From an uncultured Planctomycetales bacterium (GTDB taxonomy: Bacteria > Planctomycetota > Phycisphaerae > UBA1845 > Fen-1342), in contig CAZJYX010000001.1 of NCBI GenBank assembly GCA_964550375.1, positions 2,049 through 66,048 of the forward strand: DNA of 64,000 bases, in the 5' to 3' direction. This document shows, one piece after another, positions 1,197 to 49,620 of this stretch. Both the position numbers and the translations under genes were made by a program. The notes below the pieces were generated by a model. That model worked only from the letters and a program-made list of their open reading frames with translations. It made no database searches and was not told where the DNA came from. Every line of letters starts with the position of its first letter. Positions within the stretch are counted from its first letter, which is position 1.

Positions 1197-1664
1197 TCAG
1201 CGGGCGCGGATGGCCATTATGAGGTAGTCGTCGTTGGCGAGTGAGCCGCAGCCGTAGGGGACGAGGGTGCCGGCGCGGTTGGTGACCGTGCACTTGAGTA
1301 CGCTGGTCTGCTTCTGGCCCTCGCGTTTGGTGACTTCGATATCGAGCTTGACCTGCTTGTCGCCGTCCGCGCGGGCCTGGGGGGTGATCTTGACCTCGTA
1401 GCCCTCGATGAGCGTGGTTGTGAAAGGCTTGCCTTGCTCAGCGCGCTGGGAAGTGCGGCGTTCGAGCTTGAAGCCGGTGTACTTGAACTGCTTCTGGAGC
1501 GACTTGGCCAGCTCGCGCAGCTCGGGGGCGACGTCCTTGTTCTTGGTCGTCGCGCGCACGGCCCAGACCTCGACCTGGAAGGGCTGTCTGTCTTGAGCCT
1601 GGGACGCCAGGGGTACCAGCAGCCCGGACACGATCAGCAAGAGCGCGGCGTGGAGATTCGGCAT
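1197..1664 (-). CDS. hypothetical secreted protein
   Basis: 155 aa with N-terminal signal peptide MPNLHAALLLIVSGLLVPLASQAQ; K/E-rich mature part. Confidence 0.55.
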   Translation of the reverse strand: MPNLHAALLLIVSGLLVPLASQAQDRQPFQVEVWAVRATTKNKDVAPELRELAKSLQKQFKYTGFKLERRTSQRAEQGKPFTTTLIEGYEVKITPQARADGDKQVKLDIEVTKREGQKQTSVLKCTVTNRAGTLVPYGCGSLANDDYLIMAIRAR

Positions 1665-1910: not shown

Positions 1911-2837
1911 TCAGGCCGGGTTGCCCTCGTCCTTGCCAGCCGGGAAGGCCTTCTCCATGCCTTCAAGGAAGGCCCACTGGGCGCGGATCTCGGCGCGGAT
2001 TTCGTCGCGATCGATCGTTTTGGAATGGTAGCGGCGCTGACCGTCTAGGTACTCCGCCAGCGGCGTACCGTCCGGGCGTATGTTGATGCGGTAGCGGACG
2101 CCGTCGAAGACCTCGTAGATGGGGAAGAGGCCGCAGCCGACGGCGGCGCGGATCAGGTCGACGCTCTCGGTCGGTTCGGATTTCCAGCCGGTCGGGCAGG
2201 GCGAGAGCAGCAGCAGGAAGCGGAAGCCGCGGGTGCGGCGGGCGGTGCGGATCTTGCGGAGGAAGTCGTCGCGGTGGGCGACGGAGAGAGTGGCGGCATA
2301 AGGCACGCGGTGGGCCGCCATGATGCCCATGATGTCCTTCTTGCGTTCGGTCTTGCCGGCCGCGGTGGTCGTGGTGCGGACGCCCAGCGGGGTGGCGCTG
2401 CTACGCTGGCCGCCGGTGTTGCCGTAGATTTCGTTGTCGTAGCAGACGTAGATGATGTCTTCGTTGCGTTCGGCGGCGGCGGAGAGGGTAGCCATGCCGA
2501 TGTCGTAGGTGCCGCCGTCGCCGGTCCAGCAGACGGTGGGGTTGGGTTCCTGATTGAGGCGGCGGACGACGCTGACGCCGGTGGCGACGGCGGGCGAGCT
2601 GGCGAAGGTTGTGGCGACGGTGGGTACGCCGTAGGCGCTGGTCGGGAACTGGCCGGCGGTGACGATGCCGCAGCAAGCGGGGATGCAGAGGGTGGGTTTT
2701 TCGCCGTCGAGGCCCTGTTCGAGGAATTGGAGGCCGAGGGACATGCCGCAGCCGGCGCAGTTGGTGTTGCCGGGGCGCAGGATGCCGTCGCAGCGGACGA
2801 AGGTGTTCGTGGGGGTATCGCTGGTTGCCGTGCTCAT
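1911..2837 (-). CDS. porB: pyruvate/2-oxoacid:ferredoxin oxidoreductase beta subunit (TPP-binding)
   Basis: TPP motif GDGG...YDNEIYGNTGGQ. Overlaps the upstream alpha gene by 4 nt (ATGA coupling). Confidence 0.9.
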   Translation of the reverse strand: MSTATSDTPTNTFVRCDGILRPGNTNCAGCGMSLGLQFLEQGLDGEKPTLCIPACCGIVTAGQFPTSAYGVPTVATTFASSPAVATGVSVVRRLNQEPNPTVCWTGDGGTYDIGMATLSAAAERNEDIIYVCYDNEIYGNTGGQRSSATPLGVRTTTTAAGKTERKKDIMGIMAAHRVPYAATLSVAHRDDFLRKIRTARRTRGFRFLLLLSPCPTGWKSEPTESVDLIRAAVGCGLFPIYEVFDGVRYRINIRPDGTPLAEYLDGQRRYHSKTIDRDEIRAEIRAQWAFLEGMEKAFPAGKDEGNPA

Positions 2838-4006
2838 GCCGCCACCTCTTTCCAGACGGGCTCTTCGGCCTGCTTGCGCTGCTTGAGGTCGTCGAGGATC
2901 TCTTCGATGATCTGGGGCGTGACGTCGCCGCCGCCGAGGCCGACGAGGTAATCCTGCAGCAGGACGTCGGGCCGCTGGCGCAGGGTAGTGGCGATCTCGC
3001 CCCAGAAGATGCCGCCGGAGCCGGGGGAGTGATTTCGATCAAGGACGCCGACGCGTTTGGCCGAGCCGATGGCGTGGATGAAGGCGTCGCGCAGGAAGGG
3101 GCGGAAGAGCTTGACCTTGACCATGCCGACCTTCTCGCCGCGCTCGCGGCGGTCCTTGACGACGCGGCGCAGCGTGCGGGCCATGGTGTTGCAGGCGACG
3201 AGGACGGTTTCGGCGTCTTCGGTGTATTCGGCGGTGAAGGCGCCGTCGGGGCGGCGTCCAAACACGGCCGCGAACTCGTCGAGGGCCTCGTTCAGGACGG
3301 CCGGGACGTTCTCCATGGCGGACTGGATTTCGCGGCGGTGCTTCTCGGTCTCGCGCGGCCAGGTGAGGCCACCGACGGTGGCGGCGTGCTCGAAATCGAG
3401 CTGGTGCGGCAAGTTCAGCTTTGGCAGATATTTCTCGACGAGGTCCTGCGCGGGGATGTCCACGGCCATCTGGGTGTGCGAGAGGATGAACCCGTCTTCG
3501 GCTACGAGGGCGGGCAGCAGTACGCGGTGGTCCTCGGACATGCGAAACGCGACCAGGATGGTGTCAACCAGGTCCTGGTGCGATTCGCAGTAGAACTGGG
3601 TCCAGGCGGCGTCGCGCAGCGACAGGCTGTCGCCCTGATCGACCCAGATGTTCCAGGGCGGGCCGAGGGTGCGGTTGACCGCGATCATGACGATGGGCAA
3701 GCGGTAGTAGCCGGCGGCGAAGACGTTCTCGTTCATGTAGGCCAGGCCGTTAGAAGAGCTGGCCGTGAACGAGCGGGCCCCGGCCAGGGCGGCACCGATG
3801 CAGACGCCCATGGCGCTGTGCTCGGATTCGACCGGGACGATGTGGCCCTTGGTGAAATTGAAGGCGCGGAGGTACTCGATGATCTCGGTTTGCGGCGTGA
3901 TCGGGTACGCCCCGGCGCAGCAGCCGCGGGCGTCGCGATTAGCCTCGCCCGCCAAGGCCAGCGCGGCTCCGGCCGCGTGGTTCCCGGTTACCAGGGTGCG
4001 TGCCAC
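2834..4006 (-). CDS. porA: pyruvate/2-oxoacid:ferredoxin oxidoreductase alpha subunit
   Basis: Strong similarity pattern to PorA/VorA/KorA alpha subunits (TGNHAAGAALALAG... onwards). Likely GTG start at 4006 preceded by GGAGG. Confidence 0.85.
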   Translation of the reverse strand: MARTLVTGNHAAGAALALAGEANRDARGCCAGAYPITPQTEIIEYLRAFNFTKGHIVPVESEHSAMGVCIGAALAGARSFTASSSNGLAYMNENVFAAGYYRLPIVMIAVNRTLGPPWNIWVDQGDSLSLRDAAWTQFYCESHQDLVDTILVAFRMSEDHRVLLPALVAEDGFILSHTQMAVDIPAQDLVEKYLPKLNLPHQLDFEHAATVGGLTWPRETEKHRREIQSAMENVPAVLNEALDEFAAVFGRRPDGAFTAEYTEDAETVLVACNTMARTLRRVVKDRRERGEKVGMVKVKLFRPFLRDAFIHAIGSAKRVGVLDRNHSPGSGGIFWGEIATTLRQRPDVLLQDYLVGLGGGDVTPQIIEEILDDLKQRKQAEEPVWKEVAA

Positions 4007-4019: not shown

Positions 4020-6242
4020 CTAGAGTTCCTGCATGAAAACCACGCCGCGCGGACACTGCGAGGCACAAATCCCGCAGCCCTTGCAGTAGTCGAAGTTGAA
4101 GCTGTACCGGCAGTCGCCGTCGTGGAGCATGACGCCTTCGGGGCAGTAGGTCAGGCAGCGGTCACACTCGTTGCAGACGCCGCAACTGAAGCAACGCAGG
4201 GCCTCCTCGTAGGCCGCTTCGTGGCCGGGCTCGTCGATCAGGCCCAGTCGCACCTCGGTGAAGCTGCCGCGGCGCACTTCCGCCGGGATGATGGCGGGCT
4301 TCTCGCGTGGCTGGTGGGAGAAGACGTGCATGCGGATGGCTTCCGGGCCGGCGACCGGTGCCGGCGGGGGCGGGAAGAGGTCTTCGTCCGTGAGCGTCTT
4401 GTGGATGTGCAAGGCAGCCCGCCGGCCGCTGCCGATGGCGGCGGTTACGGTGCCGGCGTTGGTGGCGAAGTCGCCGCCGGCGAAGACGGGTGCGGCCGTC
4501 AGACCGAGCAGTTGCTCGCCGTGGCGGACGTCGGAACCTTCGGGCAGGATCGACAGGTCGCCGCTCTGGCCGAGGGCGAGGAGGACCTTGTCACACTCGA
4601 TCTCGAAGATGGCGTCTTCGCTCTCAAGCGGGACGGGGCGGCGCCGGCCGGACTCGTCCGGCTCGCCGAGCTTCATCCGTTGGCAAGTCAGCACCGTGCC
4701 CGTGGCGTTATTGTGCAGCCGCAACGGGGCGACCAGCTCGTCCAACTGGATGCGTTCTTCGAGGGCCTCGTCGATCTCCTCGGCGATGGCGGGCATCTCG
4801 GCGCGGGTGCGGCGATAGACGACGCGCACGTTGCGGGCCCCAACGCGCAGGGCGGTGCGGGCCGCGTCCATGGCCGTGTTGCCGCCGCCCAGAACGACGA
4901 CGCGTTGGCCGGTCAGGTGCACGTGGCCGCGGCGGGCCTGGTCGAGGAAGTCGATGCCCTGCATGACCATGTCGGCCGCGAGGTTGCCCAGGTTCAGTGA
5001 GCGCAGCTCCTGCAGGCCGGTTGCCACGAAGACGGCGGCATACTCGTTAGTGAGCTTCAGTAGCGCGGCCCGGTCGACGTGTTGCCTGGTCTTGGCTTCG
5101 ACGCCGTGCCGCAGGATGAAGCTGATCTCGTGGTCGAGCACGTGGCGCGGCAGGCGGTATGAAGGGATGCCGGTGCGCATCACGCCGCCGATCTCGTCGC
5201 CGGCCTCGAGCAACGTGACGTGGTAACCCAGGCGGGCCAGGTGGTAGGTGGCGCTCAGGCCGGCCGGGCCGGAGCCGACGACCGCGACGCGCTCGTTGCG
5301 CGTGGGGCGGGTGGGCTGCGGCCAGACGGCGTGATCGGAGATGTAGCGCTCAATGTCGCGAACATTGACCGGCTCGTCGTGCGCGCGCCGATTGCAGGCT
5401 TCCATGCAGGGCGCGGGACACACGCGGCCGCAGATGCCGGGGAATGGGGATGTCTTGAGAATAATGGCGAGGGCGGCGTCGTAGTCTTTCCGCTGCGCGA
5501 CGGCCTGGACGAAGCCGCGAACGTCGTTGCCGGCCGGGCAGCCATCGTTACAGGCAGGCATCAACTCGTGTCGGCTTGGTCGCCGCGAGGCCCACGTGCC
5601 AGTGCGAATGACGGGCATGCCGCCGACTTCCTCGTCGAGGATCCCGACCACCGGTCCGTTGGCGGCGCGCTGCTTCGAGGGCTGCGCCTTGCCGGCCAGT
5701 CGCTGGCCGACAACGGCGTCGTAGGCCTCGCGGGCCACCGTGACATTGGCCCCGCCGAATTTCATCTCCGCCAAGGCCGCCTCTACGTCCGCGAACTCGA
5801 GCTCAAGCAGCTTACCGGCGGCCCCCAGCAGGGCGGTGTTCACGATCGGGACGGTCTTGGTTCCCAGGCCGTGGGCCACGGCGATGGCATTGGCGTCAAC
5901 GGTCGCGACGCGGCGGCCGGGCAAAGACTCGGCGAAACTCTCCGGGGCCTCGTGCGTGTTGATGATGATCCAGCCGTCGGGCTTTAGACCAGAAAGGACG
6001 TGCGGGCCGAGCAGGGTCTGCTCGACCACAATCACGTGATCCGGCTCCTGGATCTGGTTGTGATTGGTGATCTCCTCGTCGTCGGCGCGCATGTAGGCCT
6101 GGATTGGGGCGCCGGAGCGCTCCGCGCCGTAGACGCCGAAGGCCTGCACATGTTTGCCGCGCAGGAAGTAGGTTGTGGCGATCAGCTTCGCGAGCGTGAC
6201 GCCACCCCGACCACCGCGTCCGTAGATCGTCAGTTCGATCAT
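4020..6242 (-). CDS. fusion protein: PFOR gamma subunit + GltD/NfnB-like NAD(P)H:FAD/Fe-S oxidoreductase + PFOR delta (2x[4Fe-4S] ferredoxin) domain
   Basis: N-terminus MIELTIYGRGGRGGVTLAKL (PorG). Middle has GRVCPAPCMEAC, VAVVGSGPAGL and VVVLGGGNTAMDAART (GltD/SudA-like). C-terminus CFSCGVCNECDRCLTYCP...CKGCGICASQCP (PorD). Confidence 0.85.
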   Translation of the reverse strand: MIELTIYGRGGRGGVTLAKLIATTYFLRGKHVQAFGVYGAERSGAPIQAYMRADDEEITNHNQIQEPDHVIVVEQTLLGPHVLSGLKPDGWIIINTHEAPESFAESLPGRRVATVDANAIAVAHGLGTKTVPIVNTALLGAAGKLLELEFADVEAALAEMKFGGANVTVAREAYDAVVGQRLAGKAQPSKQRAANGPVVGILDEEVGGMPVIRTGTWASRRPSRHELMPACNDGCPAGNDVRGFVQAVAQRKDYDAALAIILKTSPFPGICGRVCPAPCMEACNRRAHDEPVNVRDIERYISDHAVWPQPTRPTRNERVAVVGSGPAGLSATYHLARLGYHVTLLEAGDEIGGVMRTGIPSYRLPRHVLDHEISFILRHGVEAKTRQHVDRAALLKLTNEYAAVFVATGLQELRSLNLGNLAADMVMQGIDFLDQARRGHVHLTGQRVVVLGGGNTAMDAARTALRVGARNVRVVYRRTRAEMPAIAEEIDEALEERIQLDELVAPLRLHNNATGTVLTCQRMKLGEPDESGRRRPVPLESEDAIFEIECDKVLLALGQSGDLSILPEGSDVRHGEQLLGLTAAPVFAGGDFATNAGTVTAAIGSGRRAALHIHKTLTDEDLFPPPPAPVAGPEAIRMHVFSHQPREKPAIIPAEVRRGSFTEVRLGLIDEPGHEAAYEEALRCFSCGVCNECDRCLTYCPEGVMLHDGDCRYSFNFDYCKGCGICASQCPRGVVFMQEL

Positions 6243-7792: not shown

Positions 7793-8179
7793 GTGGCCAA
7801 GAGCCTGGACGGAAAGACAATCCTGATCGTTGATGATGATCCCGACATCGTGGCGCTGATCACGGCCGGGCTGGACGACACGGGGGCCACCGTCGAGTCG
7901 GCATCCGACGGCATCACGGCGGGCAGAATGGTTGAGGAGCGGGATCCCGACCTGGTGATTCTGGACATCATGTTGCCCCAGAAGAGCGGGTTCCTGGTTC
8001 TGGAGAAGCTGCGCAAGGGCCGGCCGCGCGGCAGCCGGCCATACGTGGTCATGATCACCGGCAACGAGGGACGTCGCCACCGGCAGTATGCTGAGGCGCT
8101 GGGGGTCGACGGCTACCTGAACAAGCCGTTCCGCATGGAGCGGTTACTGGAAATCACTGAGAAGCTGCTGAGCGACTGA
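7793..8179 (+). CDS. response regulator receiver domain protein (CheY-like, stand-alone)
   Basis: ILIVDDDPDIV...DLVILDIMLP...YLNKPF receiver motifs including the phospho-acceptor Asp. Confidence 0.85.
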   Translation: MAKSLDGKTILIVDDDPDIVALITAGLDDTGATVESASDGITAGRMVEERDPDLVILDIMLPQKSGFLVLEKLRKGRPRGSRPYVVMITGNEGRRHRQYAEALGVDGYLNKPFRMERLLEITEKLLSD

Positions 8180-9043: not shown

Positions 9044-9895
9044 ATGATATGGTCGCTATGTTCTCTCGTCTTATTGCTGCAGCCGGCGCCCCATTTGACC
9101 ATGGTGCCGACCGAGGCGCAACAGCCCGCGGAAGACGCGCCCGTATACGATGAAGGGCCGCTGGCAGTGGCCGTCGTGGCGATCTTTGACGCCCGTTACT
9201 GGTTCGAGCACACCCGGACGGGAACGCGTGAATCCGAGATGCGCATGCAGATACGGATATCGGGCGAGGACATCAAGAAGATCGTGCGGGCCGGAGAAGT
9301 GATCTTCACCGAGGTGGTTGACGATACGGGCAAGAGCCTGGTCGACCCGCAGAGTTACACGGAAGAACAGAAGACCCAGACGCGGCCGGTGAACGCCGCG
9401 CCGGAACGTCTCCGCGAGCAGGGCCTGATGACCGGGACGCGGTTCGGCTCACCGGCACGGGGCGCCAAGACGGTCAAGCTGGTCGGCTCCGTGCGTGTCG
9501 TCAAGGCGGCGGACCGCGAGGAGGTCACCATTGATAACCCGCTGCAATACGTCGGCCAGACCATTGAGAACCCGCGGCTGAAAGAGCTTGGCATCGAGGT
9601 CAAGGTCGTGCCGGTCGCCGAGTTGCCGGGCAGCCCGCCGCCCGCGGATCAGATGATTGCGCTGCAGTACCTGCGGGGCGACCAGCAGATCGCCGGCATC
9701 AAGCTGCTCGACGGTTGGATGAAGCCCGTGCGGTACCGCGAGCGGCCGATGAACACGATGAGTGGTGATCCGGTAGCCGCCTACCTGGCCCAGGGCAGCG
9801 CGCTGGACGAGAACACGCAGCTAGTGCTGGAGGTGTTCCCGCATGTCGAGGAAACCGAAGTGAAAATCAATCTCGACGCCGTCCGGCTGCCCTAA
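9044..9895 (+). CDS. hypothetical protein
   Basis: 283-aa ORF with a hydrophobic N-terminus; no recognisable domain. Precedes the flippase gene. Confidence 0.45.
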   Translation: MIWSLCSLVLLLQPAPHLTMVPTEAQQPAEDAPVYDEGPLAVAVVAIFDARYWFEHTRTGTRESEMRMQIRISGEDIKKIVRAGEVIFTEVVDDTGKSLVDPQSYTEEQKTQTRPVNAAPERLREQGLMTGTRFGSPARGAKTVKLVGSVRVVKAADREEVTIDNPLQYVGQTIENPRLKELGIEVKVVPVAELPGSPPPADQMIALQYLRGDQQIAGIKLLDGWMKPVRYRERPMNTMSGDPVAAYLAQGSALDENTQLVLEVFPHVEETEVKINLDAVRLP

Positions 9896-10024
9896 TACGC
9901 TACGGTCCGTGTCGGCCGCCCACCGAGGCGGCGGCGTAAACCCGAGACCTTGCGAGGCGGCGACGTGGCAGGTCGGACTGCCGCGTGGCCGCCTTGTTGC
10001 CTGCGGTCGCCGTTAGGGCCACCC

Positions 10025-11440
10025 GTGACCACTGTTGCACCGCCGAATGGCACTCGTTCGCCCGCGCCGACGTCGCTTGGGGCGCGCTCGCTGCGCAGCA
10101 ACATCTTCTTCGCGGTCAGCGGCATGGGGGTCTTTCACGCGGCCCAGTTCGGCGTCATCGTGCTGCTGGCGAAGTACGCCCCGTCGGATGTGCTTGGCCA
10201 GGTTCGGCTGAGCCTGGCGATTGCCACGCCGATCATCACCTTCTTCTCGCTGGAACTCCGCGGGGCGCTGGTGGCCGACGCCGCCGGCGAATTCACCTTC
10301 GGCACTTACCGCAAGCTACGCTCGTTCTCGATGCTGGTGGCGGGCGTGCTGCTGGCGGCGGTGGCGTTGTGGCAGGCGGTCGCGGAGCGCAATCTCGCCT
10401 ACACCCTAATCCTGGCGGGGATGTGCGCCAGCCGCGTCGTGCTGTCGCTGGCCGAAATCGGGTGGGGGTTGTTTCAGAAGCGCGAGCGCTTGGACTGGAT
10501 GGCCACCTCGGTGACGCTGCGGGGCATCGCCATGATCGCGGCCTTCGGCCTGTGCGTGCCGCTGTATGCCTACATGAGCGCGCGGGGCCTGATTCCGCCG
10601 CAGCGCATCGCCGACGGCGCGGCCATGGCAATCAGCGCGTACGTGGTTGCCTCGGTGGCGGTCCTTCTGCTGCTCGACCACAGGCTGGTGGCGGCCGGCA
10701 AGGACCTTGACCCGACGTGGACATGGTCGGCAGTCCGCCGCCTGGCCCGGCAGACCTTCCCGCTGGGGATCGTCCTGCTGGTGGTGCACTTGTGCAACAG
10801 CATCCCCGAACTGGTTCTCGGACAGCAGGCTAATGGCAAGGCGGCCCTGGGATACTTCGGTGCCCTGGCCACGCTCACGCTGGTGGGCAACCTGCTCGTG
10901 CTGCAGGCCGCCACCGCCGCCGCCAACCGGCTGGCCTGCTCCTACCAAGTCGACTTGCGCGCCTTTCTCCTACTAGGGGCGAAGCTGTTTGGCTTGGCGC
11001 TGCTGGTGGGCGCCGCTACGCTCGCGGTCGCGGCGGGTTGGGGCCGGTGGTTGCTGGAACTCCTGTATCGGGCTGACTACGCCCAGTTCGACCACGAATT
11101 CACACTTATTGCCGTGGCAGCGGCGCTGTCACAGGTGACGAGCATCTTTGGTGTACTCGTCACCCAGATGCGTCTGTTCTGGCTCCAGGTACCCGCACAG
11201 GTGCTGGTGCTGATTTGCACGACTGCGGCGGCTTTTGTGCTAATTCCAGGCGCTGAGAATCTGGTAAGCGGCGGGGCGTGGACGATGCTGGTCCGATCGG
11301 TCACGCATTTGTCGCTCTACACTGTCTGCGTCCTGATCGGACTACTGTTCCGGCGGCGAGTGCTGGCCAGCCGGGTGTCGCTTGCGCAGGAGCCGGCCCG
11401 TCGCCGAACGACGGCCGGCGGCGTGCCGCAGGACTGGTAG
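10025..11440 (+). CDS. polysaccharide/oligosaccharide flippase (MOP superfamily, Wzx-like)
   Basis: About 12 predicted TM helices. N-terminal SLRSNIFFAVSG motif typical of Wzx/MOP exporters. Start set at in-frame GTG 10025. Confidence 0.65.
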   Translation: MTTVAPPNGTRSPAPTSLGARSLRSNIFFAVSGMGVFHAAQFGVIVLLAKYAPSDVLGQVRLSLAIATPIITFFSLELRGALVADAAGEFTFGTYRKLRSFSMLVAGVLLAAVALWQAVAERNLAYTLILAGMCASRVVLSLAEIGWGLFQKRERLDWMATSVTLRGIAMIAAFGLCVPLYAYMSARGLIPPQRIADGAAMAISAYVVASVAVLLLLDHRLVAAGKDLDPTWTWSAVRRLARQTFPLGIVLLVVHLCNSIPELVLGQQANGKAALGYFGALATLTLVGNLLVLQAATAAANRLACSYQVDLRAFLLLGAKLFGLALLVGAATLAVAAGWGRWLLELLYRADYAQFDHEFTLIAVAAALSQVTSIFGVLVTQMRLFWLQVPAQVLVLICTTAAAFVLIPGAENLVSGGAWTMLVRSVTHLSLYTVCVLIGLLFRRRVLASRVSLAQEPARRRTTAGGVPQDW

Positions 11441-11522
11441 GCCGGGCCCGGACAAGGCGGATGCGGTATTCGCGCAGCCGCAGTAGCGGCCATCCGAGGT
11501 GGGGATCATCGATTGGGGTAAG

Positions 11523-11564
11523 CGAGGCCGACGGGACTCGAACCCGCAACCTCCGGCGTGACAG
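11523..11564. repeat. attL: 42-bp direct repeat, duplicate of tRNA-Asp positions 32-73 (anticodon loop to discriminator)
   Basis: cgaggccgacgggactcgaacccgcaacctccggcgtgacag is identical at 11523-11564 and 20152-20193. Flanks diverge immediately outside. Confidence 0.85.
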
Positions 11565-11678
11565 CGGCTCCAAGCCTACAGCCAAAAGCCCGGGAAACTC
11601 TTGACTACCGGTAGTTTACATCATTTACGCAAGCATTGCAAGTCTTATCAGATACCCGCATTTTTAGGCAAATACACG

Positions 11679-11770
11679 CGGTAGGCGGAGCGCATCCGGT
11701 AGTAAACGGTAGTCGCACGGTAGTCGAAACGGTAGTCGCGGGTGGCACGGGGTGGCGCGGGGTGGCACGC
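11679..11770. repeat. iteron-like tandem repeats next to attL: (A)CGGTAGTCG about 4-5 copies, then GGGTGGCRCG 3 copies
   Basis: Read directly: cggtagg, ccggtagtaaa, acggtagtcg, cacggtagtcg, aaacggtagtcg, then cgggtggcacgg, ggtggcgcgg, ggtggcacgc. Palindrome ctaccggtag at 11605-11614. Confidence 0.6.
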
Positions 11771-11993
11771 GCCCGCTCGGTTGTGGACTTGGGTACTTGG
11801 GTCCTGCTGACTTGTGGTGAAGGGCGCCAAGGGTCGGGCCCGCGCACAGAAGCCCGCCAGACCGCGAGAATCGGCCGCTGCTGAGCGCGCCGGGTTGGGG
11901 TGGTACTCTGGCACCCGGAAAAGCGCCAGGGCGAAAAGCGGCCCGCCAGCGTGTAGGCACCGACGGGCCATGTGGAGGGCAACGACAACGGAC

Positions 11994-13472
11994 CTAATTC
12001 GCGAACCTCGCGGTTCGGTCTTGATGGTCAATCGCGAGCTCGACAGCGGAAAGCCCGTTTTTGGTGACCTGATGCAGACGGGTGATTTCGCTGATTTCCT
12101 TCTCGGCCAGGGCAACCATCCGGCCAGTGTTGCGAGCCGTTTGGTCTTCGGCAGGTCGGGGGGTCGCCGCGCTGGCTGCAATCCGGTTGAACGCGCCCGC
12201 GATGGTTTCGAAGGCTTGAACGCGGACTTGAACCGGGGCCACCGTCAACGCGGATTCAAGCGCGGCCTTCGCTTGCTCGCCCGCACGGGCGAAAGTCTCG
12301 GGGTCGATCAAGTCGCGCGACAGAAGGTCGCTCAGTTCCGCGAGGGTGTCGCGGAAAACCTCAGCGGGCGTCCGCACGGCTTGGGCAATCGACGCGGCCC
12401 GCCGCTGCGCGCTGGCGAGTTCGTTCATCGTGTCAAGCTCTTCGGACAAGGCTTCGGCAAGCTCAAGGGTCGCGTCGCTCGCATCGTGTTGCAGCAGCGT
12501 CCACGCCGCGAGTTGCCCAGTAGACATGCCGAAGGTCTCGACTTGCTCGCGTAGGCTGTTGATAACCGAGTCGATGCTTTGTTGCCACTGATCTTCAGCC
12601 TGCGCGGCCTTCTCCGTCGCTTCGGTTTCGTCGTGGATTGCCGTGATAGCCTGATGAATTGCCAACGCGCGGGCAATGTCGGCTTCGGTCGCGCCTTGGG
12701 CCGCAAGCGCGCGATGGATGATCGCCTGTTCATTCAGCGTCAGCGCCTCAAGCTCGCGCTCCAGGCCCGCAATGAAGTCTTCAATTGGTCGCCGCCGCGC
12801 TTCTTCGGCCACAAGCTCGGCCGCCGCAAGCTTCGCGTCCCGCAAGCCGCGCGCGTAGCGTTCGGTCGCTTCGGCGGTTGCCCGCGCCGCGCGCGCGCGT
12901 TCGTGGAGCGGCCCTTGGGCTTCCATCTGCAACTTCGCAATTTCGACCAAACGGGCTTGGTATTCCGTTTCCGCCTCAAGCTTCGCGCGCTCAAGGTCGT
13001 TCGCCGCGCTGACAAGCTTCAACTGCTGCCCCAGCCCGCGAAGTAACTTGCCCTGCGCTTCAACCTGTTTGTTTAAGTTCGCGGGCAAAGGGTCGAAGAT
13101 TCGGTAGATCGCTTCAACCGCGCGATACCAGTCTCGGACGATGGGTATGATCTTCAGAATCTCGCCGGCCAGGTCCTCAGCCGCGAGCTCGCCAGCGCGC
13201 AACTTGGCGGCCAATTCGCCGGCCTGCGTAGCCATATCGCCCAGCAGCCGCCCCGCCATCGACAAGCCGGCCAGCGCGCCGCCGGCCATGCCGATTTGAA
13301 CAAACTTGCCGAACGCGGAGTCGCTGCCAAGCTGCTTGTTCATGCTGTTGACGCTGGTAGCCACGCCGCGCATGGCATCGCGGACACGCCGCGAAGTCTG
13401 TTCAACGCCCTTCATGCGGCGTTCGAAGTCATCTGTTCGCGCGATGATATCGAGAATCGCTTGTGCAGACAT
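11994..13472 (-). CDS. coiled-coil protein of integrative element (tape-measure-like or scaffold-like)
   Basis: 492 aa, A/E/L/R/Q-rich, largely helical/coiled-coil. Immediately preceded by a 152-aa gene (16-nt gap). Confidence 0.55.
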   Translation of the reverse strand: MSAQAILDIIARTDDFERRMKGVEQTSRRVRDAMRGVATSVNSMNKQLGSDSAFGKFVQIGMAGGALAGLSMAGRLLGDMATQAGELAAKLRAGELAAEDLAGEILKIIPIVRDWYRAVEAIYRIFDPLPANLNKQVEAQGKLLRGLGQQLKLVSAANDLERAKLEAETEYQARLVEIAKLQMEAQGPLHERARAARATAEATERYARGLRDAKLAAAELVAEEARRRPIEDFIAGLERELEALTLNEQAIIHRALAAQGATEADIARALAIHQAITAIHDETEATEKAAQAEDQWQQSIDSVINSLREQVETFGMSTGQLAAWTLLQHDASDATLELAEALSEELDTMNELASAQRRAASIAQAVRTPAEVFRDTLAELSDLLSRDLIDPETFARAGEQAKAALESALTVAPVQVRVQAFETIAGAFNRIAASAATPRPAEDQTARNTGRMVALAEKEISEITRLHQVTKNGLSAVELAIDHQDRTARFAN

Positions 13473-13487
13473 ATAGACTTCCTTCGG

Positions 13488-13946
13488 CTACTTGCCTTTG
13501 GTCGCGGTCATGCTGACAGCCGGCGCCGCCGCCGCGTCCGAAGCCGCATCAGCTGGCCGCAACTCGCCATCCTTCGCCAGAAGGTCGCCGATTTCTTCGG
13601 CCGAGAGTTCCGGCTGCGTCTGTCGCGTGGCCAGCCACAACAGATAGGCCGCGCCCTCAAGCTGTCGCGTCGCCGCCTGAACAACCGGATCGGTCGGGCT
13701 CATCGTCACCGCGCGGGCCAACGTCCTGTCAACGATGCCCTCGATTGCCTTCGCGGGTAGATGCTTCTCCAACTCGCCAAGGTGCTGCCAAACGGCCTTC
13801 GAATAGCGCTCCGCAGCCCAGCGCGCGAAGTCGTGCCAGCCCTCGAAGCTCAGCGGGGCCACGCTGAAAGTCTTGCCCGCGAGCGTAACCACTTGCTCCG
13901 GGGTCGGAAGGTTGCCCGCCGGGGTCGGGGTCGCGTCATTCGCCAT
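13488..13946 (-). CDS. hypothetical phage-related protein (position of a tail-assembly-chaperone-like gene)
   Basis: 152-aa ORF translationally adjacent to the coiled-coil gene; no recognisable domain. Confidence 0.45.
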   Translation of the reverse strand: MANDATPTPAGNLPTPEQVVTLAGKTFSVAPLSFEGWHDFARWAAERYSKAVWQHLGELEKHLPAKAIEGIVDRTLARAVTMSPTDPVVQAATRQLEGAAYLLWLATRQTQPELSAEEIGDLLAKDGELRPADAASDAAAAPAVSMTATKGK

Positions 13947-14145
13947 CGTGTTGCTCCTGTCTGCGGTTCCACAAACCGCTGTCCGTTCTCACAAGTCGTT
14001 GTCACGTCCACACTTACAAGCAGCACCGGGCCCGGCTGGTGCCAGGGCTGGTGCGAAACGTCAAAAGCCCGCCGACGGGGCGCTACGCGCGCGCCCGCCG
14101 ACGAACCGTCCCAAAGGGAGCCCCAATCACGTCCGTCACCTTCGG

Positions 14146-14850
14146 TCACTTCTGCCCAGCCTGCCGCACCATGATCGCCGCCGCCTCATCGCGAACACGC
14201 TGGCGTTCAACGATTCCGTCCCGAATCCCCGCGTGAAGCTCGCGGTCTTCTCGCCGGAGCCGGGATTCCTCAGCGTCGTACTCTTCGTCGCGCTCAAGGT
14301 CCGCGACCAGTCGCGCCGGGTCCTGCCCGACCGGAGCCACTGCGATGCCAACGTAGCCGTCCACAAGCGGAATCGGGTTGCCCATGTAGCCCGGCGATTC
14401 GATGTCGGTCAGCGGGTGTTCGGGGAAGGCCACGCGCATCGCCTCGACAAGCTCGCCATCGTCGGCGCACCGCAACAAAGCCGGGGTGCCGCGCTCGCGG
14501 GCCCACTCATCGAATGCTGCCAGCAACGCCGAAACGCTCACGGCCAGCCCGTTGTGTTCCGCGAACCGCTCGCGTCCGAAGTCTGCAAGCTTGGCCGCAC
14601 GCTCCGGGGCCGCGTCGGCGCGGCGCTGCTCGCGCTCGCGGTCTTGCTCCGCATCGATACGCCGTGCCTCAGCGTGCGCCGACAGCGCGCGAAGTTCCAA
14701 GCCAAGCCGTGATTTCCGGATCAAGGCAAGCTGTTCCTCAGCCAACTGCAAGCGGCCCTCAAGCGCCGCCAGTCGCGCGGCGTAGGGGTCCGGGTCGGGC
14801 TTGCCGCCCTTGTCGGAAGGGGTCGTTGTTTTTGGGGGTCTGCCTCGCAT
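14146..14850 (-). CDS. hypothetical coiled-coil protein (scaffold-like?)
   Basis: 234 aa; N-terminal charged helical region LAALEGRLQLAEEQLALIRK...; acidic C-terminus. Confidence 0.45.
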   Translation of the reverse strand: MRGRPPKTTTPSDKGGKPDPDPYAARLAALEGRLQLAEEQLALIRKSRLGLELRALSAHAEARRIDAEQDREREQRRADAAPERAAKLADFGRERFAEHNGLAVSVSALLAAFDEWARERGTPALLRCADDGELVEAMRVAFPEHPLTDIESPGYMGNPIPLVDGYVGIAVAPVGQDPARLVADLERDEEYDAEESRLRREDRELHAGIRDGIVERQRVRDEAAAIMVRQAGQK

Positions 14851-14902
14851 GTTGCGTCCTTTCTGTTCCGTTGCCGTCCGTTGCCTTCGGTGCCGGCGCC
14901 GC

Positions 14903-15520
14903 CTACTTCTGCCCAGCCCGCTGCGCCGCCGCAGCCGCCGCCCACCGCCGCCGGAGCGCGTCCTTCACAATCGCGGTTGTCCGCGCGGCGCGCGACAGCG
15001 AAAGCGGGATGAAGTCGCCCAGACCGGGCACTACCGGATTCGTACACAACGCCACGTGTTCGATGGGCTGCATGTACACGTTGCCCTTGCCGTCCACGAG
15101 CCGGGGCGGACTCTGTAGCGACACGTCCGAGCGGGCCACAGCGTTCACCGCGTCTTCACCGATGATCGTGCACGCCATCCAAAGCGTGTCGCCTTCGATC
15201 CAAAGGCTATCGACCCAGCCCATGTTGCGGGTCGCGCTTCCGTGGTTCGCGTGCTGGTCGGGAATCGGCACGCGGACGCCGTTCGCCTTCATCCGCCCGA
15301 ATTGCGTTATCCAATTGTCCAGGTGCGCCCGCGTGATCTGAAAGTCCTCGCCGGCGCTCATTTTCGCGTAGCGCCCGACGCGCACGACTTCCTTTTTGAA
15401 CCGCCGTTGCGGGATGCTTTGGCCGTTGTCAGCGGGCGCGCTTTCCAGCGGGCCGATGGGGGTTGCCGTCGGGGTTGCCGTCATCATTGCCGGGGCCGTC
15501 ATAGTCGTCACGTTGCACAT
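14903..15520 (-). CDS. Mu gpI-like (prohead protease/scaffold family) N-domain protein
   Basis: Motif run VVRVGRYAKMSAGEDFQITRAHLDNWITQFGRMKANGVRVPIPDQH. It resembles the conserved GxF..IT...L..IV.NF....V.ID.EH block of Mu-like prophage protein I, from memory of family motifs. Confidence 0.4.
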   Translation of the reverse strand: MCNVTTMTAPAMMTATPTATPIGPLESAPADNGQSIPQRRFKKEVVRVGRYAKMSAGEDFQITRAHLDNWITQFGRMKANGVRVPIPDQHANHGSATRNMGWVDSLWIEGDTLWMACTIIGEDAVNAVARSDVSLQSPPRLVDGKGNVYMQPIEHVALCTNPVVPGLGDFIPLSLSRAARTTAIVKDALRRRWAAAAAAQRAGQK

Positions 15521-15804
15521 CCTTTCTTGCGGCCGGCCGCGCTTGCTGCGCGCCGCCGCTGGGGGGTCTTGTCCTCTCGGGCCGCAATCGCCGCCTCGAG
15601 TCTGCCGATGCCCTCGCCGATGCTGGGGAAGCCCTCGAATGCCCGAGCCGCCTCAGCGCTCGACACGTCAAGGCCGACCGTCCGCGCGACCATCAAGCCG
15701 ACCAGCCGCGCCGCATCGCTCCGCACGTCCGCGACGCGCCGCCGCTGTCGCTCCGCCGACCGAAGCCGGCCCTCCAACCGCGCTACCGTCGCCCGCAGGG
15801 TCAT
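15508..15804 (-). CDS. hypothetical protein
   Basis: 98-aa R-rich ORF in operonic position (overlaps both neighbours by a few nt). Confidence 0.3.
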   Translation of the reverse strand: MTLRATVARLEGRLRSAERQRRRVADVRSDAARLVGLMVARTVGLDVSSAEAARAFEGFPSIGEGIGRLEAAIAAREDKTPQRRRAASAAGRKKGCAT

Positions 15805-16193
15805 ATTCCAACCGCTCCGCCAGCCGTGCCGCGCTCCTGCTCCGCAGCCATCGCCGCCTCAACGCTCTCCAAACGCTCAAGCAAATCCGCCGCGATGGGC
15901 TGCCCAATCGCGTAGCTCAACAACAGCTTTGCCGCCTGAGCATCGCCGCTCCGCGCCGCCTTCACGAGCCGCCCGATGATCGACCGTATGTCTTGCTCGC
16001 TGACCGCCGCAATCAGCGCCGACCGAAGCCGGGCCACTTGAGCGCCCAGCGGGTTGCCGGGCCCGCCGCTGTTGCCGCGCGCGAACCGCCCGCGCGAGTC
16101 GCGCCCGGAGCCGCCGTCACTGCCGTTTGGTGACGGCGCTGACGGATGCACCTTCAAGGCTTTCTTGCCCGACTTGTTCTGCTTGCTCGCCAC
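15801..16193 (-). CDS. DUF5681-like protein, possible small terminase (TerS)-like
   Basis: N-terminal GRFARGNSGGPGNP motif (cf. the G(K/R)F.KGQSGNP.GRPKG signature). Helical C-terminus AARSGDAQAAKLLLSYAIG. Confidence 0.45.
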   Translation of the reverse strand: MASKQNKSGKKALKVHPSAPSPNGSDGGSGRDSRGRFARGNSGGPGNPLGAQVARLRSALIAAVSEQDIRSIIGRLVKAARSGDAQAAKLLLSYAIGQPIAADLLERLESVEAAMAAEQERGTAGGAVGI

Positions 16194-16202
16194 GAAACCG
16201 CC

Positions 16203-16463
16203 TCAGCTTCTCACTTCCGCGCCAGCAGCCGCGCCAGCCCGCAGGGGTTGCGGTTGTAACCGCCGCCCAGACCGTGGCTTACGAGCCTCGCCAGCGGTTT
16301 CCATAACCGCTTCGGTAACCGCTTCCACGCTTACGCATCGCAAGCCGAATCTCCGGAGAGCGACCTTCAGCAGCGCCCGGACTCGCATCGCGCCATCCGC
16401 GCCGCCGTAGTCGCGGGCTTGCCCGATCGGTCGGAACGTCAGCTTGTACGCCGTGCTTGCCAA
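16203..16463 (-). CDS. hypothetical protein
   Basis: 86-aa ORF in operon context. Confidence 0.3.
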   Translation of the reverse strand: MASTAYKLTFRPIGQARDYGGADGAMRVRALLKVALRRFGLRCVSVEAVTEAVMETAGEARKPRSGRRLQPQPLRAGAAAGAEVRS

Positions 16464-16496
16464 GACTCTGCCTCAGCCCAGCCCATCAGCCTAGCG

Positions 16497-16889
16497 TCAA
16501 CCCATCGGGTCGATTCGAAGCTCAACAACGCACTGTGCCGGCGTGTAGCCGTCGCACGCCGCCGTGACAACTTCCGAGTACACGCCCGGCTTCAAGCCGC
16601 TGCCGTCCAACTCGATTTCGAACGGGACGCCGTGCTCGCAACTCTCGGGGATCGTCAGCCACTCCGCGCCGCCAAACTTGGAGAGCGCGATCGATTCTTC
16701 GGGGTCGGGGGCGCCGGCCACAACCAAGCTCTTGGTAAGGGCCTGCGGCTGCCCACCGGGCCGGCTACCAAGCACGCCGCGCACGTTCGCGGGCGCGTGC
16801 GGGCCGCACGGCACGCGGACCGTTGTGTCACCTGTCACCGCCACCGGATCGAAACTCAGAGTCGGCATTGGTCCTTCCTTTCTCAGCAT
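16497..16889 (-). CDS. hypothetical protein
   Basis: 130-aa ORF; globular-looking composition with Cys residues. Confidence 0.4.
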   Translation of the reverse strand: MLRKEGPMPTLSFDPVAVTGDTTVRVPCGPHAPANVRGVLGSRPGGQPQALTKSLVVAGAPDPEESIALSKFGGAEWLTIPESCEHGVPFEIELDGSGLKPGVYSEVVTAACDGYTPAQCVVELRIDPMG

Positions 16890-16989
16890 TCAGAGCCGGT
16901 TTTATCGGCCGTACAGGCGGCACCCGGTAGAGTACCGGCCATTCCGTCGGCCTCGCCGTGGGCCGCTTCTCGTAAGTACCGCCACCTGC

Positions 16990-22376: not shown

Positions 22377-22385
22377 CGCATTGAG

Positions 22386-49610: not shown

Positions 49611-49620
49611 ACTGCGCGCC

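What the first reader, a model, noticed from the sequence alone, without database searches (positions are those of the whole stretch)
4020..6242. Single 740-aa polypeptide fusing PFOR gamma, a GltD/NfnB-like NAD(P)H-flavin-FeS reductase and PFOR delta, upstream of porA-porB
Canonical PFOR/VOR/KOR operons encode gamma and delta as small separate proteins and hand electrons to free ferredoxin. Here a full glutamate-synthase-small-subunit-like module (two Fe-S cysteine clusters, FAD and NAD(P)H Rossmann motifs) is inserted in frame between gamma and delta. That should let the complex pass electrons directly to or from NAD(P)(H), as in the functionally analogous pyruvate:NADP+ oxidoreductase of Euglena. 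It could also run in reverse as an NAD(P)H-driven 2-oxoacid synthase.
Basis: partly seen in the sequence, partly recalled or inferred. Interest (0 to 1): 0.6.

Follow-up and report, generated by a model that had tools for sequence, protein, structure and literature searches.

The report
NADP-linked 2-oxoacid oxidoreductase, fused electron subunit
A real, conserved 740-residue protein joins the gamma and delta subunits of a pyruvate:ferredoxin-type oxidoreductase, and a glutamate-synthase-like NADPH flavoprotein module is spliced into delta, so the enzyme most likely passes electrons from a 2-oxoacid directly to NADP+; enzymes of this kind are known, but this layout has not been studied.

Summary
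ORF 6242..4020 (minus strand) is an uninterrupted 740-aa protein with a PFOR gamma domain, a GltD/NfnB-like Fe-S flavoprotein module and a C-terminal 2x[4Fe-4S] domain. porA and porB follow it, and there is no separate porD.

It is not an artefact. More than 120 protein clusters of 737-745 aa from independent Phycisphaerae assemblies share the layout, as do about 20 more distant clusters, one of them from Candidatus Hydrothermae.

One refinement. The flavoprotein module is not between gamma and delta; it interrupts delta. The PorD 'TGxWRxxRP' arm lies at residues 213-222 and the PorD dicluster core at 689-740. Removing residues 230-688 in silico gives a sequence that passes the curated PorD cut-off.

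The unfused form (porC | delta::GltD | porA | porB) is much commoner, so the gamma fusion is a late, simple merger of adjacent genes.

Cluster ligands, FAD and NADPH motifs and the NADP-specific YRR motif are invariant. The likely function is 2-oxoacid (probably pyruvate) + CoA + NADP+ -> acyl-CoA + CO2 + NADPH, through a five-cluster wire. Known precedents are Azoarcus 2-oxoglutarate:NADP+ oxidoreductase and, by analogy only, Euglena PNO. NADPH-driven reversal is thermodynamically unlikely.

Verdict: new variant of a known kind, moderate interest.

The parts
5712..6242 (-). Residues 1-177: OFOR gamma subunit (domain III, PorC)
   Evidence: Pfam POR 10-175, E 1.3e-31. TIGR02175 PorC_KorC 140.8 bits, above cut-off 81.1. 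PDB 9bt4_E PFOR gamma 2-180, E 1.3e-30. AF2 pLDDT mostly 80-95.
5607..5711 (-). Residues 178-212: variable linker at the gamma/delta gene-fusion junction
   Evidence: Poorly conserved and of variable length among 15 diverse fusions. pLDDT below 50 from residue 197. In unfused operons the porC stop and the start of the next gene fall here.
5553..5606 (-). Residues 213-230: N-terminal arm of delta (PorD), motif TGxW(R)xxRP
   Evidence: T214, G215, W217 and P222 are invariant or nearly so. The arm adds about 18 bits and 15 profile positions to the PorD match once the insert is removed. It aligns to solved PorD 9bt4_G residues 11-32 and to OOR delta 5c4i_B from 244. It scores z = 2.6-13.4 above shuffles in 13 of 14 fusions.
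5328..5552 (-). Residues 231-305: Fe-S part of the GltD/NfnB-like module (Fer4_20) with ligands C231, C235, C275, C279, C283, E298
   Evidence: Pfam Fer4_20, E 2e-18. Residue-by-residue alignment to T. maritima NfnB, read against the NfnB ligand list in PMC7596348. All six residues are invariant in 15 diverse fusions.
4383..5309 (-). Residues 312-620: FAD and NADP(H) Rossmann domains; GSGPAG 323-328, GGGNTA 452-457, YRR 476-478
   Evidence: Pfam Pyr_redox_2, E 1.8e-31. PDB matches NfnA(Bfu) 9bov_A, StnC 8oh5_C and NfnB 4ylf_B, E 1e-74 to 1e-89. Foldseek gives the same top hits. YRR is invariant and is the published NADP(H) determinant.
4284..4382 (-). Residues 621-653: linker
   Evidence: Low conservation; pLDDT dips to 60-80.
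4179..4283 (-). Residues 654-688: relocated 'RxxFxEV...EAxRC684xxC687' segment, equivalent to the N-terminus of NfnB/GltD; it supplies the two missing ligands of the distal flavoprotein cluster
   Evidence: Aligns to NfnB residues 13-43 and to the same post-flavin position in StnC and NfnA(Bfu). R657, E663, E680, R683, C684 and C687 are invariant. pLDDT 81-93, so it packs on the flavoprotein body, unlike the following ferredoxin domain. That C684 and C687 ligate the distal cluster is inferred by homology.
4023..4178 (-). Residues 689-740: delta (PorD) 2x[4Fe-4S] core, C690/C693/C696/C700 and C720/C723/C726/C730
   Evidence: Pfam Fer4 and Fer4_9. PorD_Arch and TIGR02179 hits. 9bt4_G PorD. All eight Cys are invariant. 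These are the only two CxxCxxCxxxCP motifs in the window.
2834..4006 (-). porA: OFOR alpha subunit (domains I and II)
   Evidence: Pfam POR_N, E 5e-57, and PFOR_II, E 1e-21. Best solved relative is M. acetivorans PFOR alpha 9bt4_B, E 4e-69, with the YPITP motif present. GTG start with a GAGGAGG ribosome-binding site 14 nt after the fusion's stop.
1911..2837 (-). porB: OFOR beta subunit (TPP binding, proximal [4Fe-4S])
   Evidence: Pfam TPP_enzyme_C, E 4e-22. NCBIfam VorB-type PRK11864 297.7 bits and PorB 255.3 bits, both below cut-off. The GDG...N TPP motif and Cys at 26, 29, 54/55 and 214 are read from the translation. Overlaps porA by 4 nt.

Best explanation
The three genes encode a 2-oxoacid oxidoreductase of the PorABCD type. 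Its gamma and delta subunits are one polypeptide, and delta carries an inserted NfnB/GltD-like Fe-S flavoprotein cassette.

Proposed mechanism, with shown and inferred steps marked:
- The 2-oxoacid, most likely pyruvate, is decarboxylated on TPP at the PorA/PorB active site and acyl-CoA is formed (inferred from family membership).
- The two electrons leave one at a time through the PorB [4Fe-4S] cluster.
- They pass the two clusters of the delta core (C700/C720/C723/C726, then C690/C693/C696/C730).
- They reach the distal flavoprotein cluster (C231, C283, C684, C687). C687 and C690 are only three residues apart, so these two clusters must be close (inference from sequence).
- They pass the proximal cluster (C235, C275, C279, E298) and reduce FAD.
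- FAD reduces NADP+ by hydride transfer. The invariant YRR motif predicts NADP(H).

Net reaction: 2-oxoacid + CoA + NADP+ -> acyl-CoA + CO2 + NADPH, with no free ferredoxin.

Evolution: the cassette was inserted into porD. This form is widespread as porC | delta::GltD | porA | porB. In Phycisphaerae and a few other lineages the stop between porC and that gene was later lost.
For: - Domain content and order.
- No separate porD or ferredoxin gene in the window.
- The fusion-porA-porB triad is kept while flanking genes differ: Phycisphaerales L001 and Hydrothermae L005.
- Five of five sampled unfused relatives lie in porC | GltD-Fd | porA | porB. Other arrangements also link the flavoprotein to OFOR genes.
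- Excising residues 230-688 in silico gives a PorD match of 66.9 bits (cut-off 60.05) over profile positions 11-74. The C-terminus alone gives 49.0 bits over positions 26-74. The arm aligns to solved PorD and is significant against shuffles.
- All NfnB-equivalent cluster ligands, the FAD and NADPH motifs and YRR are invariant over sequences down to 32% identity.
- The closest solved structures are NfnA(Bfu) and StnC. There the same cassette is inserted in a larger Fe-S protein and works as a plain, non-bifurcating NADPH site.
- A biochemically characterised 2-oxoglutarate:NADP+ oxidoreductase has a subunit of this flavoprotein family.
- The DsrL survey noted DsrL-like genes directly linked to pyruvate/ketoisovalerate oxidoreductase genes.
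Against: - No activity data exist for any member of the fused or unfused porC | delta::GltD | porA | porB family, as far as the held literature shows.
- The substrate is unresolved. PorA scores best with archaeal PorA and PorB with a VorB-type model, and all scores are below the equivalog cut-offs.
- AF2 gives no confident placement of the arm or the delta core (pLDDT below 50), so cluster-to-cluster distances are not modelled.
- That C684 and C687 are cluster ligands rests on homology only.
- The Glu ligand of the proximal cluster is associated with a very low potential in bifurcating Nfn. This could argue for more complex redox behaviour.
- The assignment of medial and distal clusters in delta is from memory of the D. 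africanus PFOR structure.
Confidence: 0.65

Rival explanations
1. Same enzyme architecture, but the physiological substrate is not pyruvate. It could be 2-oxoisovalerate or another branched-chain or aromatic 2-oxoacid, or 2-oxoglutarate.
For: The PorB-like subunit scores higher with the 3-methyl-2-oxobutanoate (VorB-type) model PRK11864 (297.7 bits) than with PorB (255.3 bits). All alpha and beta scores are below the equivalog cut-offs. The characterised NAD(P)-linked relative acts on 2-oxoglutarate.
Against: The alpha subunit is closest to archaeal PorA (350.8 bits against 298.4 for VorA) and to the solved M. acetivorans PFOR alpha. The gamma-alpha fused Kor-type layout of the 2-oxoglutarate enzymes (L033) is different. 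The wide, single-copy-like conservation across Phycisphaerae suits a central reaction such as pyruvate oxidation.
Confidence: 0.25
2. The flavin is a bifurcating or confurcating site, as in NfnAB. The complex would couple 2-oxoacid oxidation or synthesis to two acceptors or donors (NADP(H) plus ferredoxin or another partner), or free ferredoxin remains the main acceptor and the module is an attached Fd:NADP+ reductase.
For: The module is NfnB-like, with the Glu-ligated proximal cluster (E298 = NfnB E117) and the conserved Arg (R363 = StnC R239 / NfnL R201).
Against: No gene for an NfnA/NfnS-like or HydBC-like partner lies next to the conserved three-gene unit, and the flanks differ between genomes. 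The Glu and Arg also occur in non-bifurcating relatives such as DsrL (Glu) and StnC (Arg). The closest solved homologues use this cassette as a simple NADPH site. With one electron wire ending at FAD there is no second branch.
Confidence: 0.08
3. The enzyme works mainly in reverse, as an NADPH-driven 2-oxoacid (pyruvate) synthase for CO2 fixation.
For: No tool result supports it specifically.
Against: Established potentials (about -500 mV for acetyl-CoA+CO2/pyruvate, -320 mV for NADP+/NADPH) make the reaction endergonic by roughly 35 kJ/mol without bifurcation. No coupling partner is encoded in the unit. The window shows ordinary heterotroph housekeeping genes.
Confidence: 0.03
4. The long ORF is an artefact (frameshift or misassembly joining porC, a GltD-like gene and porD).
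For: None found.
Against: The ORF is uninterrupted with uniform codon bias. More than 120 independent clusters have the same length. Distant fusions exist in other lineages.
Confidence: 0.01

Closest known systems
Azoarcus evansii 2-oxoglutarate:NADP+ oxidoreductase (KGOR; Ebenau-Jehle, Boll & Fuchs 2003, PMID 14526024)
   Same: A TPP/Fe-S 2-oxoacid oxidoreductase that reduces NADP+ directly, thanks to an extra subunit of the GltD/NfnB/DsrL flavoprotein family. Operons with this look were found here in Bradyrhizobium and other Proteobacteria: a 599-aa GltD-Fd protein, a 643-aa gamma-alpha fusion and a 351-aa beta subunit.
   Different: In those operons gamma is fused to alpha (Kor type), not to the flavoprotein. 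The Bradyrhizobium flavoprotein lacks the PorD arm and has VRS instead of YRR. The substrate is 2-oxoglutarate. The Azoarcus sequences themselves were not available to me. Subunit sizes of 63, 62 and 37 kDa are from memory.
Unfused porC | delta::GltD (NCBIfam PRK12771-like, about 550-600 aa) | porA | porB operons
   Same: Same gene order, same PorD arm, same cassette, same C-terminal dicluster core, 40-47% identity. The fusion differs only by the missing stop between porC and the next gene.
   Different: Gamma is a separate protein of about 180 aa. This family is annotated only generically ('NAD(P)-binding protein', 'FAD-dependent oxidoreductase'), and I found no biochemical study of it.
StnC / NfnA of the Bfu-type NfnABC transhydrogenases (PDB 8oh5, 9bov, 9n5u)
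   Same: Best sequence and fold matches to residues 223-699. The same NfnB-like cassette, including the relocated RCxxC segment, sits as a middle domain inside a larger Fe-S protein and serves as a non-bifurcating NADPH site.
   Different: The host protein is NuoG/Fdh-like, not PorD. The complex is a transhydrogenase and has no TPP enzyme.
Moorella thermoacetica oxalate oxidoreductase 'delta' subunit (PDB 5c4i_B, 315 aa)
   Same: A natural gamma-delta (domain III + V) fusion in an OFOR. Both its gamma part (39-146) and its arm-plus-dicluster part (244-305) align to this protein.
   Different: It has no flavoprotein insert, is ferredoxin-dependent and acts on oxalate.
DsrL (NAD(P)H:acceptor oxidoreductase of dissimilatory sulfur metabolism)
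   Same: Same overall plan: an Fe-S part, FAD/NAD(P) domains, a linker and a C-terminal 2x[4Fe-4S] ferredoxin domain. The YRR rule for NADP(H) comes from this work.
   Different: DsrL partners with DsrAB and has a complete N-terminal ferredoxin domain. The authors explicitly excluded look-alikes linked to pyruvate/ketoisovalerate oxidoreductase genes.
Euglena / Cryptosporidium pyruvate:NADP+ oxidoreductase (PNO)
   Same: Same proposed net reaction; a PFOR covalently joined to an NADPH-reducing flavoprotein (from established knowledge).
   Different: PNO uses a cytochrome-P450-reductase-like FMN/FAD module fused to the C-terminus of a single-chain PFOR. No such Pfam domains occur here. The resemblance is analogy, not homology.
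Azoarcus/Aromatoleum phenylglyoxylate:NAD+ oxidoreductase PadEFGHI
   Same: An OFOR that reduces NAD+ through an additional FAD subunit (from memory). The Pad gamma, delta, alpha and beta NCBIfam models hit the corresponding parts here.
   Different: All scores are far below the Pad cut-offs. Delta and epsilon are separate proteins. No PadH model appeared among the best 25 matches to the flavoprotein module, so homology of the flavoprotein parts is not shown.

Membership tests
2-oxoacid:acceptor oxidoreductase, PorABCD (pyruvate/2-ketoisovalerate) type | Alpha subunit with POR_N and PFOR_II domains and the YPITP substrate motif | tested here: met
   Pfam E 5e-57 and 1e-21. YPITPQT is present and aligns with solved PFOR alpha 9bt4_B.
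2-oxoacid:acceptor oxidoreductase, PorABCD (pyruvate/2-ketoisovalerate) type | Beta subunit with a TPP-binding domain and four Cys for the proximal [4Fe-4S] | tested here: met
   TPP_enzyme_C E 4e-22. The GDG...N motif and Cys 26, 29, 54/55 and 214 are read from the translation. NCBIfam equivalog cut-offs are not reached, so the substrate class is open.
2-oxoacid:acceptor oxidoreductase, PorABCD (pyruvate/2-ketoisovalerate) type | Gamma subunit (PF01558 / TIGR02175) | tested here: met
   TIGR02175 140.8 bits against cut-off 81.1, covering residues 1-177.
2-oxoacid:acceptor oxidoreductase, PorABCD (pyruvate/2-ketoisovalerate) type | Delta subunit (TIGR02179): N-terminal arm plus 2x[4Fe-4S] core | tested here: met
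   Met only in split form. The C-terminus alone gives 49.0 bits, below 60.05. Arm plus core after in-silico removal of residues 230-688 gives 66.9 bits, above 60.05, over profile positions 11-74 of 78.
2-oxoacid:acceptor oxidoreductase, PorABCD (pyruvate/2-ketoisovalerate) type | CoA-dependent oxidative decarboxylation of a 2-oxoacid | not testable with these tools
   Needs an enzyme assay.
GltD/NfnB-like Fe-S flavoprotein (NADPH-dependent, two [4Fe-4S]) | Fer4_20 domain with ligands equivalent to NfnB C47, C51, C90, C96, C100 and E117 | tested here: met
   C231, C235, C275, C279, C283 and E298 align accordingly (with the ligand list) and are invariant.
GltD/NfnB-like Fe-S flavoprotein (NADPH-dependent, two [4Fe-4S]) | N-terminal RCxxC pair (NfnB C39/C42) preceding the CxxxCP motif | tested here: not met
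   There is no Cys before C231. The equivalent segment, EALRC684FSC687, lies after the flavin domains, as in StnC and NfnA(Bfu). This is a permuted or inserted-cassette variant.
GltD/NfnB-like Fe-S flavoprotein (NADPH-dependent, two [4Fe-4S]) | FAD and NAD(P)H Rossmann motifs, and the YRR motif for the 2'-phosphate | tested here: met
   Pyr_redox_2 E 1.8e-31. G323/G325/G328, G452-G454 and Y476-R477-R478 are invariant.
NCBIfam NF009410 (PRK12771, 'NAD(P)-binding protein') | Whole-protein score at or above the curated cut-off of 516 bits | tested here: inconclusive
   503.7 bits, just below the cut-off, but the alignment covers profile positions 31-563 of 566 (residues 212-738).
DsrL | Occurs with dsrAB and is not immediately linked to pyruvate/ketoisovalerate oxidoreductase genes (criteria of PMC7596348) | tested here: not met
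   The gene is fused to porC and followed by porA and porB. No dsr genes were seen among the window ORFs scanned.
NfnAB (NfnSL) bifurcating transhydrogenase | Partner NfnA/NfnS subunit ([2Fe-2S] + FAD) encoded alongside | tested here: not met
   The conserved unit is fusion-porA-porB only, with different flanking genes in three genomes. The rest of each genome was not searched.
Eukaryote-type pyruvate:NADP+ oxidoreductase (PNO) | Single-chain PFOR fused to a cytochrome-P450-reductase-like FMN/FAD/NADPH module | tested here: not met
   No flavodoxin, FAD_binding_1 or NAD_binding_1 domains. The enzyme is multi-subunit.
NAD(P)+-dependent OFOR with a GltD-family subunit (Azoarcus KGOR type) | GltD/NfnB/DsrL-family flavoprotein physically associated with OFOR catalytic subunits | tested here: met
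   Association is covalent with gamma and delta and syntenic with alpha and beta.
NAD(P)+-dependent OFOR with a GltD-family subunit (Azoarcus KGOR type) | 2-oxoacid-dependent reduction of NADP+ without ferredoxin | not testable with these tools
   Needs purified enzyme.

The most novel reading that the evidence does not exclude
Phycisphaerae, and the many bacteria with the unfused porC | delta::GltD | porA | porB operon, oxidise pyruvate with a self-contained pyruvate:NADP+ oxidoreductase. It would have arisen independently of the Euglena enzyme, by insertion of a mobile NfnB-like cassette into PorD. If so, 'porABCD' calls in metagenome-based metabolic models wrongly assign reduced ferredoxin, and hence H2 or Rnf coupling, to a large set of organisms. 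A bolder variant is that the Glu-ligated low-potential clusters let the enzyme run reversibly or bifurcate with a partner that has not yet been seen.
Probability: 0.45. Interest if true: 0.55.

Novelty: new variant of a known kind. Interest (0 to 1): 0.42.

Why it matters
If the inference is right, this enzyme yields NADPH, not reduced ferredoxin, from pyruvate or another 2-oxoacid. That changes the predicted redox balance, fermentation products and hydrogen metabolism of Phycisphaerae and of the many lineages with the unfused operon, which are now annotated as ordinary ferredoxin oxidoreductases.

The split-delta architecture also shows how an NADPH-flavin cassette can be spliced exactly at the exit of an Fe-S wire. 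The same trick occurs in StnC and NfnA(Bfu). This is useful for understanding modular evolution of redox enzymes and for engineering NADP-linked 2-oxoacid oxidoreductases.

It does not overturn anything. NAD(P)-linked members of this superfamily have been known since about 1998-2003.

Tried and rejected
It gave no taxonomic survey of the fusion, though it did yield other OFOR-linked arrangements.
- A profile search of the 5.8-billion-protein set was again dominated by Phycisphaerae and added little.
- Ten literature searches found no paper on the fused or unfused family. The key Azoarcus paper (PMC225024) and Pereira et al. 2011 are not held.
- The promoter and terminator scan was uninformative.
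- Homology of the flavoprotein to PadH was considered but is not supported by NCBIfam hits.
- Frameshift artefact: rejected.
- DsrL membership: rejected.
- Homology to PNO: rejected.
Full report

Yes. The minus-strand ORF 6242..4020 has an ATG start and 740 sense codons with no internal stop. Its third-position GC is 0.87, the same as its neighbours.

Pfam places four domains:
- POR (gamma) at residues 10-175
- Fer4_20 at 229-305
- Pyr_redox_2 at 318-606
- a dicluster ferredoxin at 690-734

NCBIfam agrees. PorC_KorC covers 1-177 at 140.8 bits (cut-off 81.1). GltD-family models cover about 229-620. PorD_Arch covers 688-737. Model PRK12771 ('NAD(P)-binding protein') covers 212-738 in one stretch at 503.7 bits (cut-off 516).

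Immediately downstream on the same strand lie two more genes:
- porA, with a likely GTG start at 4006, 14 nt after the stop and behind a GAGGAGG ribosome-binding site. It ends at 2834.
- porB, 2837..1911, which overlaps porA by 4 nt.

The upstream gene encodes an MlaD-domain protein and is separated by 334 nt. The only two CxxCxxCxxxCP motifs in all six frames of the 64-kb window are the two in this protein. There is therefore no separate porD or ferredoxin gene.

**2. Is it an artefact?**

No. A search of 5.8 billion proteins returned at least 120 clusters at 64-96% identity. Nearly all are 737-745 aa with the same Pfam content, from many independent assemblies. Where a source names them, they are Phycisphaerae, Phycisphaerales or Planctomycetota MAGs.

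Among the 150 best representatives of a library clustered at 50% identity:
- 22 carry gamma + flavoprotein + C-terminal domain, down to about 33% identity
- 106 carry flavoprotein + C-terminal domain without gamma (median 579 aa)

One distant fused cluster is from Candidatus Hydrothermae. The fusion-porA-porB triad is kept in a Phycisphaerales 4.2-Mb contig and in the Hydrothermae contig, although the flanking genes differ.

**3. What the architecture really is**

(a) *A relocated cysteine pair.* The flavoprotein module starts at C231xxxC235P and lacks the N-terminal RCxxC pair of NfnB/GltD. That segment (RxxFxEV...EALRC684FSC687) follows the flavin domains instead. HMMER aligns residues 654-688 to NfnB residues 13-43. 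It aligns the whole of 223-699 colinearly with StnC (8oh5_C) and with the NfnA subunit of Bfu-type NfnABC (9bov_A). AF2 models 650-688 with pLDDT 81-93, packed on the flavoprotein body.

(b) *A PorD arm before the module.* Residues 213-222, 'RTGTWASRRP', carry the motif TGxW(R)xxRP. It is invariant or nearly so in 15 fusions spanning 32-67% identity. This is the N-terminal arm of PorD. When residues 230-688 are removed in silico, the remaining 86 residues hit TIGR02179 (PorD_KorD) at 66.9 bits over profile positions 11-74 of 78, above the curated cut-off of 60.05. The native C-terminal 100 residues give only 49.0 bits over positions 26-74. The spliced sequence aligns to the solved M. acetivorans PorD (9bt4_G, residues 11-79) and to the arm-plus-core part of oxalate oxidoreductase 'delta' (5c4i_B, 244-305), which is itself a natural gamma-delta fusion. 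The arms of 13 of 14 fusions score z = 2.6-13.4 above shuffles against the PorD arm.

(c) *Unfused relatives have the same gene order.* In five of five sampled unfused representatives the gene order is porC (about 180 aa) | flavoprotein-ferredoxin (554-566 aa) | porA | porB, with no porD. These proteins begin with the same KTGSWRxxRP arm.

So the polypeptide reads: gamma - linker - delta arm - [NfnB-like cassette] - delta dicluster core. The older and widespread event is insertion of the cassette into porD. The gamma fusion is a later loss of the stop between two adjacent genes.

The published StnC structure describes the same cassette as a domain insertion that oxidises NADPH without bifurcating. 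NfnA(Bfu) has it as a middle domain. These proteins are also the top Foldseek hits of the AF2 model.

**4. Cofactor sites**

Using the NfnB ligand list in PMC7596348 and the alignment:

| This protein | NfnB equivalent | Role |
|---|---|---|
| C231 | C47 | distal cluster |
| C283 | C100 | distal cluster |
| C235 | C51 | proximal cluster |
| C275 | C90 | proximal cluster |
| C279 | C96 | proximal cluster |
| E298 | E117 | proximal cluster |
| C684, C687 | C39, C42 | distal cluster (inferred) |

All of these are invariant. The eight Cys of the delta core (690, 693, 696, 700, 720, 723, 726, 730) are invariant too.

Y476-R477-R478 corresponds to NfnB Y310-R311-R312. That motif binds the 2'-phosphate and, in DsrL enzymes, separates NADP(H)-specific from NAD(H)-specific forms. 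It is invariant in the fusions and frequent in the unfused family (79 of 106 by a crude pattern).

C687 and C690 are three residues apart. The distal flavoprotein cluster and the first delta cluster must therefore lie within easy tunnelling distance (inference from sequence).

**5. Most likely mechanism (inferred, not measured)**

The 2-oxoacid is decarboxylated on TPP in PorA/PorB. Electrons then pass through the PorB cluster, the two delta clusters and the two flavoprotein clusters to FAD, and from FAD to NADP+. Free ferredoxin is not needed.

The best-supported substrate is pyruvate. PorA is closest to archaeal PorA and to the solved PFOR alpha 9bt4_B. The beta subunit, however, scores slightly better with a VorB-type model, and nothing reaches an equivalog cut-off. 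Other 2-oxoacids therefore remain possible.

Reverse, NADPH-driven synthesis is disfavoured by about 180 mV (textbook potentials). No bifurcation partner is encoded in the conserved unit.

**6. Comparison with what is known**

NAD(P)-linked members of the superfamily exist. The Azoarcus evansii 2-oxoglutarate:NADP+ oxidoreductase has a subunit placed in the GltD/NfnB/DsrL family by a published phylogeny. Operons of matching layout turned up here in Bradyrhizobium and other Proteobacteria: a GltD-Fd protein of 599 aa, a gamma-alpha fusion of 643 aa and a beta subunit of 351 aa. Their flavoprotein has no PorD arm and carries VRS in place of YRR.

[quoted passage not shown] The linkage has therefore been noticed, but not studied.

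Euglena-type PNO performs the same proposed reaction with an unrelated P450-reductase-like module; none of its domains is present. The phenylglyoxylate:NAD+ enzyme (Pad) is a further functional precedent from memory, but homology of its flavoprotein subunit was not supported.

I found no publication on the fused or unfused porC | delta::GltD | porA | porB family in the held library. That library is incomplete, and two relevant papers could not be read.

**7. Verdict**

- It needs four corrections: the insertion point is inside delta; the gamma fusion is secondary; the cofactor is predicted to be NADP; reversal is unlikely.
- This is a new architectural variant of a known kind of enzyme. It is common in Phycisphaerae, generically annotated and biochemically untested.
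- Interest is moderate. Its main consequence is for metabolic inference from genomes and for understanding modular Fe-S/flavin wiring.

Noticed in passing
window 18774-20227 (and 9044-17784): A tyrosine-integrase gene (18774-20036, minus strand) lies directly beside tRNA-Asp (20151-20227, minus strand). The ORFs from about 9.0 to 17.8 kb have no Pfam hits. Together these could be an integrated genomic island bordering the oxidoreductase region.
   Followed up: partly
window 27304-31257 (+): The SecA homologue is 1317 aa, far longer than the usual 900 or so. A large insertion splits the DEAD-like motor domain (profile positions 3-289 are spread over residues 89-528).
   Followed up: no
window 46771-52010 (+): An ISC-type Fe-S cluster assembly gene row: IscS-like aminotransferase, an IscA-type protein with a 120-aa N-terminal extension, HscB, HscA and a further 143-aa ORF. 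It is relevant only in that the oxidoreductase needs about five [4Fe-4S] clusters.
   Followed up: no
window 20465-24603 (+): A chemotaxis-like signalling set: CheB methylesterase, CheX phosphatase, a CheY-like receiver and an FHA-SpoIIE (PP2C) phosphatase. A lone receiver-domain gene also lies at 7793-8179.
   Followed up: no
window 41152-44448 (+): Two tandem signal peptidase I (S26) paralogues of unusual length (581 and 497 aa). In each the catalytic domain is split into two matched stretches.
   Followed up: no
window 1197-1664 (-): A 155-aa ORF just downstream of porB has a signal-peptide-like N-terminus and no Pfam hit. Whether it is co-transcribed with the oxidoreductase genes is unknown. 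It is not conserved next to the triad in L001 or L005.
   Followed up: partly
L089 794-1955: In one unfused relative, two tandem porC (gamma) genes precede the delta::GltD gene.
   Followed up: no
L033 4950-9618 (Bradyrhizobium centrolobii); also L042, L051, L074, L077: Proteobacterial operons encode a 599-aa GltD-ferredoxin protein without the PorD arm and with VRS in place of YRR. It is followed by a gamma-alpha fused Kor-type subunit and a beta subunit. These are probably the Azoarcus KGOR type and represent a second, independent way of joining this flavoprotein to an OFOR.
   Followed up: partly
L010 1981-6620 (Solirubrobacterales MAG): A third gene order, porC - porA - porB - delta::GltD, shows that the flavoprotein-delta gene moves within the operon.
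   Followed up: partly
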